NCBI RefSeq assembly: GCF_009914755.1 | Contig: NC_060939.1 | Strand: one strand, 5' to 3' | DNA length: 64,000 nucleotides | From: the human T2T-CHM13v2.0 reference genome, Homo sapiens | Part shown: positions 14,149-23,029 of the stretch, piece after piece | How positions within the stretch are numbered: the first letter of the stretch is position 1 | How the letters are laid out: each line of letters opens with the position of its first letter | Program-made: the position numbers and the translations under genes | The notes under the pieces: model-generated | Database searches by the model: none | What the model was told of the DNA's origin: nothing | The model's input: the letters and a program-made list of their open reading frames with translations, nothing else

Positions 14149-14434
<286 letters not shown>

Positions 14435-15020
14435 TGTTGGGGAAACTAGCCCACACCATCCAGTGGGTACCCCGAGTCCAGCAGAGACAAAGGAGTTAGA
14501 AAGAGACAGAATAAGCATTTAAAAGGTGGGTCCAGGGAACTGGAGCATCGGAGGCTTGCTCACCGCCCAGAGCTCTCGGGCTTCACCCAATTTATTGGTT
14601 TACAAGCCCTTTGTTCTTAGGGCAGATGGGAGGGGGAGGAAGGGATGAGGAAAAGGATTAATCAGTGAAGGAGAACTCATGAGTCATTCGATAAGATGTA
14701 CAGCAGTGGTGGTTTCCGTGAATGCCCTTGAACAAAGGTGTGTGTCTAAACTACTTAAGATCTTGAACTTATTCGGACTGAAACAGGTGGTAGCAGGTTT
14801 CAGGAGGAGCCAAGATGTTTGATTATACTCCACTGCTTCAAGGGAGTGTTACCTCCCTGAGCAACCCGTGGAATGCCGCTGAGCGGTTATACTCTCAGGG
14901 CATAAAGACATAAAGGCAATAAGGAGACTTTTCTCCTCAGAGGCCGCTCATGGCTTCCCATGTGTGTCTCACACAGGGGAGACCAACTCAACTGGCACCC
15001 CACTAACTCTCTTTCTCACA
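14435..15020 (-). repeat. 3' LTR (LTR14C-like)
   Basis: Preceded on - strand by polypurine tract AAAAAAGGGGGACA (15021-15034); candidate AATAAA at 14591-14596. Confidence 0.92.
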
Positions 15021-15034
15021 TGTCCCCCTTTTTT

Positions 15035-17066
15035 GTCTTTATTAATTTTTTTTGACTAATAACTGCCATTGCTATCATGGCTCATTTACGGTGTCTGACT
15101 TCTCTCCCAAGGTGCTGTCTGCATCTGTAGACTAAAAACAAACAGCATAAACGACACAAACCAAAATAAAATTTGCAATTGTTGATCCACCTATGGTTTT
15201 AATCCACTTTAAAGGATTGGTATTAGAAAGGCCATCAGTGGCTCCAGCAAGAATATCAGCTCCAGGCAACATGGTGAGATGAGCCTGAGATGCCTCAAAA
15301 ACTTGTTTTTTCAATTTAATTTAATATTAAATTATCTTCTTTTCCTTGTGGGTGACAACTAATCATCACCCAATGGTGTTCAGTGGTATTATAAGAGCTA
15401 GGAGTAATACAAAAATCAGAAGTATTTCAATCACATTGCATATGAATTCTATGCTCCAAGCTCATAATCTGATCTCCCATCCAAATTACTGTTTGATGGA
15501 GATCATTAATTTGATTTGCCAGTTTTTGATCTATTTGGCTTTGGGAATTCCAAAGCTTAGAAGAATTTTTCTGCCAACTATCCACAAAGCCCGCAGTTTG
15601 AATAGAAGAGTACAAAGCAACACCAGCAGGAGCAGCAGGAGCAGCAGTAGCTGTGACAGCTATAAGGCCCATGATCACAGCTATTAAAGTAAGTATGAAT
15701 CTCTTTGATCTATTAAGTATTCCTTTTAGTACTTCAGTGATAATACGTATGGAGGTAGAGGCCTCCCAGGGTCTACTGAGGGAAACAGGTATCCAAACTC
15801 CTTCTTGGGCCCTAACCAGTAAAACGCTATTATCTTTATTAAAGGTAGAATTAATGCAGGTAAAAAGATGACAGTTGAGGCATGATATGGTTTGAGAGTC
15901 AGGTAGGATGTTAATTTTTCCCACTGCCAACATAAGAGGAGGTCTAACACAACTCTGCAATGGGACCAACTGATTAGAGGTCATGGCTACAACAAATCGA
16001 AGTTTTTTACTACGGGTCTCTGTTTTATATTCTCCTTTCCAAATCCAAATTGGGGTTTGAGCCATCATTAATTTCTACAGTTCTAGATGTTCTGGACTTA
16101 TAATTGGATCAATCATTTTTGGGCTTGGAGGAGCCATACCGTTTTCCTCCCACTTAATAGGGTAATTTGTTTCAATTTTTCTATATAATTTTGGTGCATT
16201 ATCTTGGTAGTCGTTTGCAAAAGGAGTCTCTCTACAATCTTTGCACTGTCCAGTACAATTTACTGCAAAGTGTCCCCTAGGGGCCCAATCAATGATTCCA
16301 TAGGAATTATTCTGCAGTACAGCAGCACTGTTTGCAATACAATCTTCCCAGGTTAGCACCTTTAGCTTTCCAGACCATTTAGTGGCCTGCCTAGGGCAGG
16401 GCTTCTTATTAGGTTTAAATTTATTAATCTGGCGATGTGTCATAACATAGCCATGCTCAAGGTATTTAATAGTGTCCAAAGATTGAAATGTTCTTCCACT
16501 GATTGCATGAATAGAGGCTTTTGATCCATTATGTGCAGGGACATAAACCATCCAAATTTGTTTATCATAATTTAAAAATCCTGCTGCTGGCCCCAGGCAG
16601 ATGGGAGGAAAGCGATAACCAATGGAAACATTCATTAACATTCCTTCCTCCTCTGGATGAGTAGGACCTCAGTTATCTGTTGGTCCAGGCATCCAGACAC
16701 TATCATTAATATAAACCTCCACCAGGGGGTCTAACCATGTAACAGACCTAATCAGTGGGGGAATGGAATGTAGGCCCAATAAATGTAATTTTGATCTGCC
16801 CCAGCTACGGGGAGACTCACCGCCAAGGAGATTACTGCCATCATAGCTATCATTAGATTACTGGTGGTCAGCAGCTTGTTCTGAGACCTCAGGTTCTCAT
16901 CTGCAATGTGAGCTAGTCTCTTCATCTGCCCACAGGTCGGTGGAGTTGCTTGGCAAGTTTTACTGGTTTCCATCTGCTCAACAGAGATGTTCATCTGAGC
17001 CATCTGATGAACCAGGGGTGCAGGGACATTCCGAGGTCTTTTCCTCTTCCTTGGATTCTGGCTCAT
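15035..17066 (-). pseudogene. env: ERV env (disrupted; 3' end approximate)
   Basis: HERV-K type leader, YWAYIPFP, furin site RSKR, fusion peptide [23 protein letters not shown] heptad; several stops and frameshifts. Confidence 0.9.
15075..17066 (-). CDS. Predicted spliced Rec-like accessory protein, join(17066..16821,15131..15075), 100 aa
   Basis: Open exon of 82 codons ending at donor GCG|GTGAGT, joined to acceptor TTTTTAG|TCT, then 18 codons and TGA. Same architecture as HML-2 rec. Expression unproven. Confidence 0.55.
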
Positions 17067-19605
17067 GGCACAGCTTAAGATGTCTTGTGGGTACCCAGAC
17101 AGGAAGCTGATTCTCTCCTGGCAAGATACAAGCAAAACCCTCGACCCCATGTAATGATTTTGCCCTTTTCCCAAGTTTGGTTCTGACGTCCTTCCACTAC
17201 ATGTTTTCCTTCATGAGGATTTATTTTTTGTCCTGTCAAATGCTGCTCTGCTGCCGTTGTAACCTGATCTCTAGACAAATTCAAAAAATTTAAAGTGATA
17301 AGAGCCAATTATAGCTGCATATGGAGAGTAGAGTGTTCTCTGGTTCCCCCCTCTGTCTTTTGTTTTTGTAATTGAGATTTTAAGGTTTGATTAGCCTGTT
17401 CAACAATGTCTTGGCCTTGAGAATTACAGGGTATTCCACTACTGTGCTCAATGTGCCATTGTTGAAGAAACGCTTGTGAAGATTTACTATAGTAGCCTGG
17501 GCCACTGTCTGTTTTAATCTTTTGTGGGATGTCCATGGCAGCAAAACAAAAAAGTAAATGTCTTTTAATATGAGCAGCTGCCTCACCTGTTTGGCAAGCT
17601 GCCCATACAAAATGAGAAAAGGTATCTATAGTAACATGGACATATGAAAGTTTCCTGAATGAAGGTACATGGGTTACGTCCATTTGCCACAACATATTGT
17701 GGGTTAATCCCCACGGATTAACACCAGTCCCTTCACGTGGCAGTTGTAGTACCTGGCACTGAGGGCAATGTTGCACAATGTCCTTTGCCTGTCTCCAAGT
17801 AATCTGACATTTTTGTTTAAGTCCTGCTGCTAACATGTGTTAGGGAGTGAAAATCTTGGGCATTAGTAAGCACAGTGGAAACTAGCAAATCAGCTTGATA
17901 GTTAGCCCTTACAAGTGGCCCTGGGAGATTAATGTGTCCTCAAATGTGCATAATATAGAAAGGAAAACAGCGATCATGCACTGCCTTTTGTAAAGAAGAA
18001 AACAGCTGATAGAGTTGTTCATCTGCAAGATATTTAGTGAGTGCAGTTTATATGTATTGAGTGGTTTGAACAACATAAGCTGAATCAGAGACAATATTTA
18101 CAGGTTGCTTAAAGTCTTCTAACACAGCTATAACTGCCCGTAATTCAGTCCTCTGTGCTGATTCAAAGTCAGTTTGAATAATTCTGTTTTTAGGTCCAAC
18201 ATAAGCTGCTTTTCCATTGCTAGAGCCATCTGTAAACACAGTCACTGCTCCTTCCAATGGAGTACTATGGGTACTTTTTGGAAGGACCCATGTTGTTAGC
18301 TTTAAAAACTGAAAAATTTTGTTTTTTGGATAATGATTGTCAAGAACTTCAGTGAAGCCAGCTAAATTTATTTGCCAATTGACTGAATTAAGAAAGGCTT
18401 GCTGAATCTGATTTTTATTCATTGAAACTATAATCTTATCTGGATCTGAGCCACAAAGTTTAACAACTCTAAGGCGAGCTTGTCCAATCAAGATTACGAT
18501 CTGGTCCAAGTATACTGTGAGTGTTCTAACAGTATTGTGAGGCAGAAAAGAACATTCAACTAAGTCCTCACTCTGAACTATAACCCCTGTAGGAGAATGG
18601 AAAGTAGGGAACACAATGAACTATAATGGTAAACTTGAGTCTATTCTATTAACCTGGGCCTGTTGTATTTTTTCTTCAATCATTTGTAATTCTTTGGCAG
18701 CCTCAGGAGTCAGTTCTTGTTTACTATTGAGAGCAGGGTCTCCTCTTAAAATAGAGAACAGATTAGACATAGCATAGGTAGGGATTCCCAAAGTAGGTCG
18801 AATCCAATTGATATCCCCTAATAATTTTTGAAAATCCTTTAAAGTTTTCAGAGAGTCTTTTCGAATTTGAACCTTTTGGGGTTTAATTGCCCTTTCCTGA
18901 ACCTGCATTCCCAAATATTGGAAAGGAGTGACCGTTTGAATTTTATCTGGTGCTATGAACAATCCAGCACTGGCTACCACCTCCTGTAAATATGAATAAC
19001 ACTGGATAAGTTGGTCTTGATTTTCGGCTGCACACAATATGTCATCCATATAATGAATGATATACGAATCGGGAAACTGATCTCTCACAGGTTGAGTAGC
19101 CTTCCCCACAAAAGTTTGACAAATAGTAGGACTATTCAACATACCCTGCAGCAGGACTTTCCAATGATATCTGGCTGCTGGTTCCCTGTTGTTTGTTCAT
19201 AGCAGGAATAGTAAAAGCAAATTTCTCAAAATTAGACTCTGCTAGAGGAATATTACAAAAGCAATACTTCAAATCTATAATTATTAATGGCCAGTCTCTA
19301 GGAATCATGGTGAAGGATGGAAGCCCTGGCTGCAGGGACCCCATTGGCTGGATGACTGCACTGACCACTTGTAAGTCGGTTAGCATGTGGCATCTGCCGC
19401 ATTTTTTTATTTATTACAAACACTGGCTAATTCCATGGAGAAAATGTGGGCTCAATGTTTCCTTTGTTTAATTGCTCTTTGACTAATTCCTGTAAGGCCC
19501 CCAATTTTTCCTGAGAAAGCAGCCACTGCTTGACCCAAACAGGATTTTGGGTCTTCCATTTTAAGGGAATAGGATTTGGAGGCTCAACGGTGACTGCCCC
19601 TAAAA
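17000..19605 (-). pseudogene. pol: ERV pol (RT-RNaseH-IN, disrupted; ends approximate)
   Basis: RT IIHYMDD, RNase H FTDGSS/EL/SDS, integrase CPQC, WQMDVTH, KTDSGP; split across frames. Confidence 0.9.
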
Positions 19606-19623: not shown

Positions 19624-20586
19624 TCAGTCATTTTTTACAGTAACCTGTATGGGTTCAGTAATGCCCATCTCCTGTTTTCCTAGGCCTTTTCCAGGAACAT
19701 AGCCCATGTTTGACATTATTTTTTGACTGGCTTGACCATACCAGGGAGAAGGGATTGAAATTTCTCTGCCCCATTTGTGAAGCAGATCTCTCCCCCATAA
19801 GTTAACAGGAATGGATGTAATTAGAGGTTGTATTGTGCCTTCCTGTTCTTCTGGACCAAGACACGGTAAGATAAAAGTACTTTGGAAAACTTCTGAAGCA
19901 GTTCTGACCCCAACAAGACCCACTGGGGCCTTTTGTTTGGGCCAGTTTTTTGGCCATTGATAAAGAGCTATGATCGACACATCTGCTCCTGTGTCGACCA
20001 GACTCTCAAATTGTTTTCCTTGAATAGTGACCATACAAATAGGACTATTGTCAGAGACTTGATTTACCCAATAGGCAGCCTTGCCTGCTGAATTCGTGCT
20101 TCCAAATCCTCCTGTTCTTTTTTCTGAGCTTTCTCCTAACTTAACATATGGTAAAAGCAACATTTGAGCTATTCTGTCACCTGGATTAGCACTCCAGGGA
20201 ACAGTGGAGGAGATAACAATTTGAATTTCTCCCTGGCAATCAGAGTCCACTACTCCAGTATGTACTTGAATTCCCTTTAAGTTTAAGCTGGACCTTCCCA
20301 GTATAAGTCCCACTGTGACATTTGGCAATGGGCCATAAACTCCCATTGAGACCTTCCTAGGAGGCTCCTCAGGAAGGAGGGATACAGCTTCCGTACAGCA
20401 TAAATCTACTGCCCTGCTTTTAGCTGTGGAGGGGGACAATTGCTGTACATTTGTACAGGGATAGGCTGGGCCAGGAACACTCTGTTTGGAGTCAGGGATG
20501 TCCCATCCTGAATTGGGAATGCCCCATTTTGAATCGGGGCCCAGGGCTGGCCCCTCTGTCTGCTTCCTGGCAAGGGCTGTCCTCTG
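19624..20586 (-). pseudogene. pro: ERV pro: dUTPase-protease-G-patch, frame nearly intact
   Basis: dUTPase motifs AVDL, GRSS, GVVDSD, DRIAQ, RTGGFGST; protease DTGAD and GRDLL; G-patch MGYVPGKGLGK. Confidence 0.9.
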
Positions 20587-22272
20587 TTATCAAACTTTGA
20601 ATGACATTGATTAGACCAGTGTTTTCCTTTTTTACATCTAGGACAGGTCCCTGGTTCCCTGCTTTTTCCTCCTGAGTTTTGCCTTTTTTGGCTCTTTGTA
20701 CATTCTCTTTTTGTATGTCCTATCTGTCCACAATTATATCAAGATCCAGGGAACACTCGTGTGTTTTTTGTTACTCTTAGTCCAGCCATTGCCTGAGCAA
20801 GGAGGATGGCCTTATATAAGTGATCCCTAATGCCACTGCAGGCTTTAATGTATTCACTTAAAGTTTTTTCCTCATTTAGATCTGCCTTTCCCTTAATAGG
20901 TCTAATTGCTGCCTGACATTCTGTATTAGCATTTTCATAAGCAAGCAGTTGAACTTTCCTGGCATGAGAATCCAAAATAGCCTTTGAGCTGTGTCTTGCA
21001 AACGGGCGATAAAATCTGGATGAGGCTCCCTTGGACCCTGTCGAACTGAGTTAAAAGAAGGATAAGTAGTACCAGGGTCATGAATTTTTTCCCAGGCTCT
21101 TGGGCATATACTTCTGAGCTGATCAACAGCCTCATCACCCATTACCATCTGTTGATTTATAGTACCTCATGCCTGTCCGATTCCAAGCAATTGATCAGAT
21201 GTGATATTAATGGGAGGTTGAGCTTGAGCATTTCTGCATGCCTGATTTGTTGCTTCATCTGTACACCAGGCTTTAAATTGCAGAAATGGAGAGGGGGACA
21301 GGGTGGATTGGGCTAATGACTCCCAATCCATAGGTATTAAACACCTGTTATAAGCCACAGATTGTAACAAGGAATGAACATAAGGAGAATTCGGCCCATA
21401 TTGTCCTATTGCTTGCTTTAAGTCTTTTAATATTTTAAAAGGAAATGGCTCCTAGCGTGCTTGGGCATGTTCTCTGGGCTCCTCAGCTGGCGAAATAATT
21501 ACCAGAAACTGCCAAGCATCCAAATCCCTGATTTCTCATCCCTGGCGAATGGATGCCTGGATTGTCCCTGTGCCATAATTTGTATTTGGGCCGGCTTGCA
21601 GCATTCCTTTACTATAATTAACAGGTGGACAAGCCTGGATCATTCCCTCACTGTAATTGGCTGTTGGGCCAGCCTGAAGCTTCCCTTTGCCACAGTTAAT
21701 GGTGGGGCGTGCAACAATGGGAGTGACAAGCCGCATCTCAGGCTCTCATTTCAAAAATTCATAAGGCTGAGGTGGGGGTGGCCATTCCGGACCTTCCCCT
21801 AAAGGCACAGTAGGTGGCACTATTTCTGCAGTAGGTGGAACTGTTTCTTTCATAAGTTTTTGGAGGTTAGCATATATAGCTTCCTGTTTCTTCCCCTTTT
21901 TAAAATTAGACTGTGATGGTTCACTTTGCTGATCATCAGAATCCTGATTATTAAACTTTTCTATGTCATCCTGAAACTCCTTCTCCTCCTCAGCGTGGAA
22001 GGGCTCTAGTGCTGTTTTAATTGCTGACCACACAGACCAAGCGGAGAAAGGAATATCGTGGCCCTCTTGTTGTGCTCGTTTTAAGTCTGATCCAACCTTG
22101 TCCCAATCTTTTACATTCATGGTTCCATATTCCAGGAACCAAGGAGAATACTTTTCTACGAGATGGAACAAAGATGTGAGATTTTGGGTACTCACAATTA
22201 CCCCCCACCACGGCACAATAACTGCCGCACCAGGCTTAAGTAATTAACACACTTACTTTCAGCCTGACCCAT
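20406..22272 (-). pseudogene. gag: ERV gag (disrupted)
   Basis: Myristoylation start MGQAESK at 22272, frameshift near 22200, MA/CA fragments, MHR VRQGPREPHPDFIARL, two CCHC knuckles (first Cys of knuckle 1 is now TGA). Multiple stops and frameshifts. Confidence 0.88.
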
Positions 22273-22422
22273 ATTTTCCTGAGGTTACCCTGGAATTCTC
22301 CAAGTGCCCTACTTACCCATAGAGCCTGAAGTAAAAACGTACTCAGGCATCCTTCATCAGTCGTCCTCCACTTTCCACACTCTGGCGTTTCTTCACTGGA
22401 TTATTTGTAGAGATTATGGGGA

Positions 22423-22440
22423 GCCCCATGTTGGGCGCCA
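22423..22440 (-). promoter_or_regulatory. Primer binding site, tRNA-Lys(CUU) type
   Basis: TGGCGCCCAACATGGGGC, one mismatch to TGGCGCCCAACGTGGGGC. Confidence 0.9.
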
Positions 22441-22442
22441 GA

Positions 22443-23029
22443 TGTTGGGGAAACCAGCCCCACATCACCCAGCGGGTACCCTGAGTCTAGAGGAAACAAA
22501 GGAGTTAGAAAGAGACAGAATAGCGTTTAAAAGGCGGGTCCAGGGGACTGGAGCATCGGAGGCTTGCTCACAGCCCAGAGCTCTCGGGCTCTGCCCCAAT
22601 TTATCGGTTTACAAGCTCTTTGTTCTTAGGGCAGATGGGAGGGGGAGGAAGGGATGAGGAAAAGGATTAATCAGTGAAGGAGAACTCATGAGTCATTCGA
22701 TAAGATGTATAGCAGTGGCGGTTTCTGTGAATTTCCTTGAACAAAGGCGTGTGTCTAAACTACTTAAGATCTTGAACTTATCGGGACTGAAATGGGTTGG
22801 AGCAGGTTTCAGGAGGAGCCAAGATGTTTGATTATACTCCACTGCTTCAAGGGAGTGTTATCTCCCTGAGCAACCTGTGGAATGCCACTGAGCAGTTATG
22901 CTCTTCGGGCATAAAGACATGAAGGCAATAAGGAGACTTTTCTCCTCAGAGGCCGCCCATGGCTTCCCATGTGTGTCTCACACAGGGGAGTCCAACTCAA
23001 CTGGCACCTCAGAAACTCTCTTTCTCACA
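22443..23029 (-). repeat. 5' LTR (LTR14C-like)
   Basis: On - strand TGTGAGAAAG...CCCCAACA, directly followed by the PBS. Confidence 0.92.

What the first reader, a model, noticed from the sequence alone, without database searches (positions are those of the whole stretch)
15075..17117. Intact two-exon rec-like accessory ORF hidden in an otherwise dead HML-9-type provirus
SEEN (- strand): leader donor GG|GTAAGT (22317/22316). Env acceptor TTGCTTGTATCTTGCCAG|G at 17117; the first ATG after it is at 17066 (gccATG). This opens 82 codons, [82 protein letters not shown], ending at a phase-0 donor GCG|GTGAGT (16821/16820). An acceptor TGTTTGTTTTTAG|TCT at 15131 adds [18 protein letters not shown] (TGA 15077-15075), total 100 aa. 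KNOWN: HML-2 Rec, a Rev/Rex-like RNA export factor, is made this way: env signal-peptide exon plus an 18-aa alternative-frame exon SAGVPNSSEETATIENGP*, with an Arg-rich NLS and a WAQLKKL NES. Here the second exon has the same length, position and S...P* ends, the basic patch RKRKRPR is present, and the NES region reads CGQMKRL (W>C). INFERENCE: this lineage had a rec gene and this locus could still encode it although env is broken. I do not recall rec being described for HML-9 and cannot check. Caveats: leader uATGs exist, and a short ORF can survive by chance.
Basis: partly seen in the sequence, partly recalled or inferred. Interest (0 to 1): 0.85.

Follow-up and report, generated by a model that had tools for sequence, protein, structure and literature searches.

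The report
Relic rec-like gene in HML-9 provirus
A dead ancient retrovirus copy next to SLC28A2 still carries an unbroken two-exon reading frame built like the Rec RNA-export gene of the younger HERV-K(HML-2) viruses, but it has most likely survived by chance.

Summary
The element is the HML-9 (HERVK14C) provirus 15q21.1, 8595 bp, on the minus strand.

The env acceptor, the phase-0 donor, the 3' acceptor, the 18-codon second exon and its TGA stop all align base for base with those of an HML-2 provirus taken from the same genome. Exon 1 is 32% identical to HML-2 Rec exon 1, and the alignment ends at the last residue of both. So the HML-9 lineage very probably had a rec gene of the HML-2 type.

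Intactness here is not special:
- 3 of 16 HML-9 proviruses that hold both exons keep the whole frame.
- A simple decay model gives 0.05-0.21 survival per locus.
- Exon 1 has decayed about as fast as the neighbouring env sequence.

Exon 2 shows no constraint at protein level. Splicing, expression and export activity could not be tested. Two upstream ATGs open frames that run across the start codon.

None of nine literature searches found a rec described for HML-9. A "Rec domain" is published for HML-10. One key 2005 paper on this family could not be read.

Verdict: a real but ordinary new member of a known kind.

The parts
22443..23029 (-). 5' LTR (LTR14C type)
   Evidence: Direct repeat with the 3' LTR, 94% identical over 300 nt. 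It starts with TGTGAG and ends ...CCAACA two bases before the primer binding site.
22423..22440 (-). Primer binding site, TGGCGCCCAACATGGGGC
   Evidence: Read. Jia 2022 (PMC9178832, passages) lists the 15q21.1 primer binding site as the lysine type.
22311..22319 (-). Leader splice donor, TGG|GTAAGT (exon ends 22317). It lies 45 nt upstream of the gag ATG at 22272.
   Evidence: The same GG|GTAAGTAG is kept in the one other independent copy I could read (L054 = L055). Use of the site was not tested.
17117..17137 (-). Env and rec 5' acceptor, tract plus CAG|G (exon starts 17117)
   Evidence: It aligns with HML-2 ...TTTCACCAG|GAG. The AG is kept in 16 of 17 HML-9 copies.
16821..17066 (-). First coding exon: 82 codons, equal to the N-terminal (signal peptide) part of Env. 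It has a basic patch RKRKRPR at residues 6-12 and KRLAHIA at residues 49-55.
   Evidence: Translation. Pfam PF15695 scores 39.2 bits against a cut-off of 27.5. BLASTP against HML-2 exon 1 gives 32% identity over 65 residues without gaps, E 2e-11, and ends at the last residue of both.
16815..16823 (-). Internal (rec) splice donor, GCG|GTGAGT, phase 0
   Evidence: It aligns with HML-2 GTG|GTAAGT, which lies after codon 87. The GT is kept in 17 of 17 HML-9 copies: GTGAGT in 15, GTAAGT in 1, GTGTGT in 1.
15132..15151 (-). 3' acceptor, TTTATGCTGTTTGTTTTTAG
   Evidence: It aligns with HML-2 ...TGTCTGTTGTTAG|TCT. The AG is kept in 17 of 20 HML-9 copies and 10 of 10 more distant loci.
15075..15131 (-). 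Second coding exon: 18 codons plus TGA
   Evidence: It has the same length, frame and CCA-TGA end as the HML-2 exon. It is intact in 10 of 20 HML-9 copies and 8 of 10 more distant loci.
15021..15036 (-). Polypurine tract just upstream of the 3' LTR
   Evidence: Read. It aligns with the HML-2 tract.
14435..15020 (-). 3' LTR, with AATAAA at 14591-14596. This is where a Rec-responsive element would be expected.
   Evidence: The U3-R part folds with z = -2.53, and 1 of 100 shuffles folds as well. The 5' LTR copy gives -1.69 and controls give -1.43 and +0.52. Inconclusive.

Best explanation
This is the fossil of the rec gene of the HML-9 (HERVK14C) retrovirus.

Inferred for the living virus: a doubly spliced RNA joined the leader (donor 22317) to the env acceptor (17117). 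It used the env start codon and the first 82 env codons, left env at the phase-0 donor (16821) just before the end of the signal peptide, and re-entered at 15131 to read 18 codons in a frame other than env. The product would be a small basic protein with an N-terminal Arg/Lys patch, a Leu-type export motif and a truncated hydrophobic segment. By homology with HML-2 Rec, it would have carried unspliced viral RNA out of the nucleus through CRM1 by binding a folded element in U3-R.

Shown here: the homology of all the sites and the open frame.

Inferred only: splicing, the protein and its activity.

At this 15q21.1 locus the frame has most likely stayed open by chance since integration, with no selection by the host and no known expression.
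For: - The four sites and both exons are present exactly as described.
- Pairwise alignment with an HML-2 provirus of the same genome (full env frame) puts the env acceptor and the donor on the HML-2 sites. The HML-2 donor lies 261 nt (87 codons) after its ATG. This matches the published Rec exon 1 of residues 1-87 and exon 2 of residues 88-105 (PMC2649029, passages).
- The 3' acceptor, the 18 codons and the TGA also coincide.
- The donor stretch GGT(G/A)AGTCTCCC is an island of identity in a region that is otherwise about 60% identical.
- The sites are kept across HML-9 copies and in HML-10-like loci.
- Exon 1 is homologous to HML-2 exon 1.
- An acceptor at the same place, of HML-8 origin, is used in macaque SERV-K/MER11 (PMC11379458, passages).

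Evidence for chance survival:
- 3 of 16 proviruses with both exons keep the frame.
- The decay model gives 0.05-0.21 per locus.
- Stops plus frameshifts number 13 in 16 copies for exon 1, against 27 and 17 in 14 copies for the next two env segments of equal length. These are about 10, 14 and 12 distinct events by my hand tally.
Against: - No transcript, junction read or protein was examined. RefSeq lists no gene on the provirus (hub table).
- In most HML-9 copies, exon 2 and its acceptor overlap the env tail. Their conservation is therefore partly explained by env.
- pN/pS over 9 lineages is 0.84 in the rec frame, against 0.59 in the env frame. The exon-2 peptide itself shows no constraint.
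- The donor also encodes Val-Ser of Env.
- The model leader holds 8 upstream ATGs. Two of them (22350 and 22320) open frames of 57 and 47 codons that run across the rec-like ATG.
- A responsive element in U3-R is not shown.
- The leader donor could be checked in only one other copy.
Confidence: 0.8

Rival explanations
1. HML-9 never spliced a rec RNA. The donor-like and acceptor-like motifs and the short open frame are by-products of env coding: Val-Ser codons in the signal peptide, and Leu-Val plus pyrimidine-rich hydrophobic codons in the membrane anchor. RNA export would have been done by the Env signal peptide itself, as in MMTV and JSRV, or by a constitutive transport element.
For: - Exon 2 and the acceptor lie inside the env tail in most copies.
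- There is no protein-level constraint in the rec frame.
- An 18-codon open alternate frame is not improbable: about 0.4 from (61/64)^18, my arithmetic.
- Pfam PF15695 covers Env residues 19-105 of HML-2 and runs past the donor. It therefore marks the Env N-terminus and not Rec as such.
Against: - All three sites fall on the sites HML-2 is known to use, with the same phase and the same exon length.
- Synonymous choices that make the signals are the same in HML-2, HML-9 and HML-10-like loci. These are AGT for Ser, GTR for Val, and TTA before G.
- The homologous acceptor in HML-8-derived sequence is used in macaque cells.
Confidence: 0.13
2. The frame is kept by selection in the host. The locus would be a co-opted gene for a Rec-like protein that acts in germ cells, embryo or tumours.
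For: - The frame is whole in a provirus whose other genes are broken.
- An Ensembl lncRNA, AC051619.4, is said to overlap the provirus (PMC9178832, table). It appears in oesophageal-cancer expression signatures (search listing only).
- HERVK14C is de-repressed when KAP1 is lost (PMC6172469, abstract).
Against: - Survival fits neutral decay.
- Other HML-9 loci lose the frame at the expected rate.
- Overlapping upstream ATGs are present.
- There is no RefSeq gene on the provirus.
- No orthologue data are available here.
Confidence: 0.05

Closest known systems
HERV-K(HML-2) Rec (formerly cORF)
   Same: - Doubly spliced design.
- Exon 1 is the Env N-terminus, ending at a phase-0 donor just upstream of the signal-peptidase site.
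- Exon 2 is 18 codons starting at the homologous acceptor and ending at the homologous TGA.
- A basic patch lies directly upstream of the shared RN..APL motif.
- A K(K/R)L..(L/I)A motif sits at the place of the mapped export signal.
(PMC2649029)
   Different: - Exon 1 has 82 codons rather than 87 and is 32% identical.
- The exon-2 peptide shares 4 of 18 residues (my count).
- The basic patch is RKRKRPR rather than RRRRHRNR.
- The LTR is about 586 bp, and no responsive element is shown.
- No expression or function data exist.
Rec domain / 'Rec puteins' of type II HERV-K(HML-10) (Grandi et al. 2017, PMC5667498)
   Same: An Env N-terminal region outside HML-2 that is recognised as Rec-like. The HML-10-like loci I read (1q22 and 1p36.13 by position) share the donor, acceptor and 18-codon exon with HML-9.
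   Different: That paper treats only the env-internal domain, as puteins of 72-76 residues. The word 'splice' does not occur in it. It describes no second exon and does not deal with HML-9.
sRec of macaque SERV-K/MER11 (Williams et al. 2024, PMC11379458)
   Same: [quoted passage not shown]
   Different: Its second exon is 62 residues. Its splicing was seen in RNA-seq, and the protein had no export activity in their assay. Nothing of this kind is known for HML-9.
MMTV Rem and the JSRV Env signal peptide (Rej)
   Same: These are betaretroviral export factors that sit in the long Env signal peptide and carry basic and Leu-rich motifs (general knowledge; abstracts listed).
   Different: There the active part is the cleaved signal peptide of Rem or Env. 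It is not a short protein with a separate 18-codon exon, and the splice pattern is not homologous.

Membership tests
Rec of HERV-K type (HML-2 Rec as the type member) | First coding exon is the Env N-terminus and is homologous to Rec exon 1 | tested here: met
   PF15695 scores 39.2 and 45.8 bits against a cut-off of 27.5. BLASTP gives E 2e-11 and 32% identity over 65 residues. Caveat: the Pfam model spans Env residues 19-105, so it does not separate Rec from Env.
Rec of HERV-K type | Phase-0 splice donor at the homologous place inside the signal peptide | tested here: met
   GCG|GTGAGT aligns with HML-2 GTG|GTAAGT, which lies after codon 87. The protein alignment ends at residue 82 of one and 87 of the other.
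Rec of HERV-K type | Acceptor near the 3' end of env, upstream of the polypurine tract, opening an 18-codon exon in a frame other than env | tested here: met
   The acceptor, 18 codons and TGA coincide with HML-2. The exon is in an alternate frame to env in most HML-9 copies. In the window copy a 1-nt deletion has moved the broken env into the same frame.
Rec of HERV-K type | Arg-rich nuclear localisation and RNA-binding motif near the N-terminus (HML-2 residues 13-20) | tested here: inconclusive
   RKRKRPR at residues 6-12 sits directly upstream of RN..APL, as RRRRHRNR does in HML-2. BLASTP does not align this part. Function is untested.
Rec of HERV-K type | Leu-rich export signal (HML-2 residues 54-60) | tested here: inconclusive
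   The aligned stretch reads KRLAHIA against KKLTQLA, with the hydrophobic spacing kept (motif positions from PMC2649029). CRM1 dependence cannot be tested here.
Rec of HERV-K type | Doubly spliced mRNA actually made | not testable with these tools
   No transcript data are held. There is no RefSeq gene on the provirus (hub table).
Rec of HERV-K type | Structured responsive element in U3-R of the LTR | tested here: inconclusive
   z = -2.53 for the 3' LTR and -1.69 for the 5' LTR, against -1.43 and +0.52 for two internal controls. No Rfam family matches in the LTR.
Rec of HERV-K type | Export of unspliced viral RNA | not testable with these tools
   This needs a reporter assay.
HML-9 (HERVK14C) provirus | Identity of the locus with a catalogued HML-9 provirus | tested here: met
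   The provirus is 8595 bp, on the minus strand, about 9 kb upstream of SLC28A2. Jia 2022 lists 15q21.1 on the minus strand at 8597 bp. Nineteen other copies at 81-92% identity lie at places that match their list.

The most novel reading that the evidence does not exclude
The 15q21.1 HML-9 provirus, together with the chr6 (48.7 Mb) and chr19 (43.8 Mb) copies that keep the same frame, makes a spliced mRNA and a Rec-like shuttling protein in human cells when TRIM28/KAP1 silencing is lifted. That would mean Rec-type activity in human cells is not confined to HML-2. It would also mean the two-exon rec gene predates the split of HML-2, HML-9 and HML-10.
Probability: 0.07. Interest if true: 0.6.

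Novelty: new member of a known kind. Interest (0 to 1): 0.38.

Why it matters
Rec is usually treated as a speciality of HML-2. Grandi 2017 says so while adding an HML-10 'Rec domain'.

Here, donor, acceptor, exon length and stop are shared base for base by HML-2, HML-9 and HML-10-like elements. This places the two-exon rec design in their common ancestor. It also gives a simple rule for annotating rec relics in other HERV-K groups.

For human biology it adds three loci with Rec-like coding capacity. Studies using HML-2 Rec probes, antibodies or peptide searches should be aware of them. There is as yet no sign that these loci are used.

Tried and rejected
1. I first concluded that HML-9 env ends at the TAG of the 3' acceptor, so that exon 2 would be free of env constraint. 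Searches showed this holds only for the window copy, which has a 1-nt deletion about 20 nt upstream. In most copies env reads through in another frame, as in HML-2. I withdrew the conclusion.
2. The pN/pS of exon 2 by frame, over 9 lineages, gave no support for a constrained Rec tail: 0.84, 0.65 and 0.59. I chose rows with an open rec frame. I left out L025 (a duplicate), L028 and L030. Counts of 'open frames' from that set are therefore biased, and I do not use them.
3. Folding of U3-R as a stand-in for a responsive element gave weak, non-specific values.
4. I wanted to check conservation of the leader donor in other copies.
5. Rfam found nothing in the LTR or near the exons.
7. Flockerzi et al. 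2005, J Virol 79:2941, is the first description of the HERV-K14C family. It is not held and may contain a statement on rec.
8. Literature searches found no description of a rec gene or second exon for HML-9. I read passages of PMC9178832, PMC11209481, PMC5667498, PMC11379458, PMC2649029, PMC6172469 and bioRxiv 10.1101/2024.10.28.620668. I opened no supplements.
9. I did not make a multiple alignment with a consensus line. All comparisons were pairwise against natural copies.
Full report
**What is there.**
- The window is T2T chr15:43028001-43092000.
- On the minus strand lies a provirus of 8595 bp with two LTRs, at 22443-23029 and 14435-15020. The LTRs are 94% identical over 300 nt.
- It has a lysine-type primer binding site at 22423-22440.
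- Its gag, pro, pol and env are all broken into pieces. The longest open stretch is 320 codons.
- By size, strand and its place about 9 kb upstream of SLC28A2, it is the HML-9 (HERVK14C) provirus '15q21.1' of Jia et al. 2022 (PMC9178832, tables read as passages).

**The observation.**
- Every coordinate and letter in the finding is right.
- This covers the leader donor GG|GTAAGT (22317/22316) and the env acceptor (exon starting at 17117).
- It covers the first ATG at 17066 and the 82 codons up to GCG|GTGAGT (16821/16820, phase 0).
- It covers the acceptor TGTTTGTTTTTAG|TCT (15131) and the 18 codons ending at TGA 15077-15075.
- Joined in a script, the frame has 100 codons, about 11 kDa, pI 9.2.

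**Homology with HML-2 rec.**
- The human genome is held, so I located HML-2 proviruses with Pfam PF15695. The best hits have 700-codon open env frames. I read one of them at chr7 4.70 Mb (L061, L091).
- Its first 87 env codons and the 18-codon frame SAGVPNSSEETATIENGP* are the published Rec exons: residues 1-87 and 88-105 (Ruggieri et al. 2009, PMC2649029, passages).
- In pairwise nucleotide alignments, the window's env acceptor falls on HML-2 ...CACCAG|GAG. Its donor falls on GTG|GTAAGT, exactly 261 nt after the HML-2 ATG.
- Its 3' acceptor falls on ...TTGTTAG|TCT, and its TGA on the HML-2 Rec TGA, with no gap in the 54 nt between.
- BLASTP of the two first exons gives 32% identity and 58% positives over 65 residues without gaps, E 2e-11. 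The alignment ends at the last residue of both.
- The basic patch RKRKRPR sits directly upstream of a shared RN..APL motif, where HML-2 has RRRRHRNR, the mapped localisation signal at residues 13-20.
- The mapped export signal (54-60, KKLTQLA) aligns with KRLAHIA.
One other copy, on chr6, shares it.

**Other copies.** I compared copies one by one with the window, or with a natural copy, and built no consensus.
- Exon-2 region in 20 HML-9 copies including the window: the acceptor AG is kept in 17, and the acceptor plus an 18-codon frame ending at the same stop is kept in 10.
- In 10 more distant loci (67-78% identical; by position mostly HML-10, including the two C4-gene copies): the AG is kept in 10 and the 18-codon frame in 8.
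- Exon-1 region in 17 HML-9 copies: the env acceptor AG is kept in 16 and the ATG in 10. The donor GT is kept in 17 (GTGAGT 15, GTAAGT 1, GTGTGT 1).
- Three further loci at 71-81% identity also carry GT(G/A)AGT there.
- Of 16 proviruses holding both exons, 3 keep the entire arrangement: the window, a chr6 copy at 48.72 Mb, and a chr19 copy at 43.78 Mb. The chr19 copy has 81 codons and a GTGTGT donor.

**Is the intact frame more than chance?** No.
- I used the chr6 copy as the frame reference and counted stops plus frameshifts.
- Exon 1 has 13 in 16 copies, with 6 copies clean.
- The next 246 nt of env has 27 in 14 copies, with 2 clean. The following 246 nt has 17 in 14 copies, with 4 clean.
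- Many events are shared by Y-chromosome duplicates or recur at one CGA codon. My hand tally of distinct events is about 10, 14 and 12. A fourth segment was unusable because the reference itself is shifted there.
- A simple decay model gives 0.05-0.21 survival per locus, that is about 1-3 of 16. It uses 4-6% substitutions, as implied by the 8% LTR-LTR divergence in Jia 2022. It assumes indels at 10-15% of substitutions and 2.7-3% of substitutions making a stop in this frame.

**A correction to my own reading.**
- In the window, env ends at the TAG that forms the 3' acceptor. I first took this to mean that exon 2 is free of env constraint.
- Searches show this is peculiar to the window, which has a 1-nt deletion about 20 nt upstream.
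- In most HML-9 copies env runs through the acceptor and the exon in another frame and on towards the LTR, as in HML-2. Nucleotide conservation of exon 2 is therefore confounded by env.
- Over 9 lineages, pN/pS is 0.84 in the rec frame, 0.65 in the second frame and 0.59 in the env frame. The rows were chosen for an open rec frame, and L025, L028 and L030 were left out.
- So the 18-residue tail shows no constraint on its sequence. HML-2 and the window share 4 of 18 residues.
- The case for rec in HML-9 rests on positional homology of the signals. It also rests on synonymous choices that make them: AGT for Ser and GTR for Val at the donor, and TTA before G at the acceptor. These are shared by HML-2, HML-9 and HML-10-like loci.
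- Independent support comes from macaque SERV-K/MER11. There a rec-like splice uses the known sites although the acceptor region is HML-8-derived (Williams et al. 2024, PMC11379458, passages).

**Caveats for expression.**
- I assumed a transcription start about 30 nt after a TATA-like motif. The model leader then holds 8 upstream ATGs.
- Two of them open frames of 57 and 47 codons that run across the rec-like ATG: 22350, with A at position -3, and 22320, at the donor.
- The leader donor is kept in the one other independent copy I could read, and the ATG at the donor is absent there.
- U3-R of the 3' LTR folds somewhat better than shuffles: z = -2.53, with 1 of 100 shuffles as good. The 5' LTR copy gives -1.69, and two internal controls give -1.43 and +0.52. 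A responsive element is neither shown nor excluded.
- Rfam has no match there.
- The Pfam 'HERV-K_REC' model covers Env residues 19-105 of HML-2 and runs past the donor. It matches 143 places in the genome. It marks the Env N-terminus of HERV-K-like elements, not a rec gene.

**What is known.**
- Neither the human nor the chimpanzee HML-9 survey mentions Rec, except as HML-2 background.
- Grandi et al. 2017 report an 'Env Rec domain' in type II HML-10 and state that Rec had been thought exclusive to HML-2. They do not treat splice sites or a second exon, and the word 'splice' is absent from the text. Their mentions of HML9 do not concern Rec.
- Nine searches gave no description of rec in HML-9.
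- Flockerzi et al. 2005, the founding paper on HERV-K14C, is not held. I opened no supplements.

**Verdict.**
HML-9 carries a rec gene of HML-2 design, and this locus keeps its frame.
- It is a new member of a known kind. A specialist would half expect it, given Rec, Rem and the HML-10 report.
- Its survival here looks accidental, and whether it is used remains untested.

Noticed in passing
window 20520-20568 (-): Rfam gag/pro ribosomal frameshift site RF01097 scores 43.9 bits against a gathering score of 43. This fits a betaretroviral gag-pro -1 frameshift signal still recognisable in this provirus.
   Followed up: no
window about 15150-15153 (-): The window copy has a 1-nt deletion about 20 nt upstream of the 3' acceptor. 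The deletion moves the env tail into the rec frame, so env ends at the TAG of the acceptor. Most other HML-9 copies read env through this region, as HML-2 does.
   Followed up: yes
G000 C6:48.72 Mb (L037, L008) and C19:43.78 Mb (L038, L007): Two other HML-9 proviruses keep the same two-exon frame. The chr6 copy also shares the Cys, where most copies have Trp, five residues before the export-signal stretch.
   Followed up: partly
Y-chromosome HML-9 copies L041, L044, L045 (and L046): Three copies share AGG in place of the env/rec ATG, and L046 has AAG. All four share two 1-nt deletions just after the donor. This shows they multiplied by segmental duplication after integration.
   Followed up: no
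env codon 132 of HML-9 copies (window about 16670): The same in-frame stop is found in 7 of 14 copies at one position, where the reference copy has an Arg codon. This may reflect recurrent CpG decay (inference) rather than shared descent.
   Followed up: no
Pfam PF15695 (HERV-K_REC): The 87-position model maps to Env residues 19-105 of HML-2 and continues past the rec donor into Env-only sequence. A hit therefore cannot tell Rec from Env. The model has 143 hits over its cut-off in the human genome.
   Followed up: partly
window 22257 region (-): A second GTAAGT lies 16 nt downstream of the gag ATG (AAA|GTAAGT). It is another possible leader donor and would carry the gag start into spliced RNAs.
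   Followed up: no
window 14300-14379 and beyond 23030: Alu-type sequence flanks the provirus on both sides. It gives weak SRP and mir-1268 Rfam matches below gathering score and Alu-like frames.
   Followed up: no
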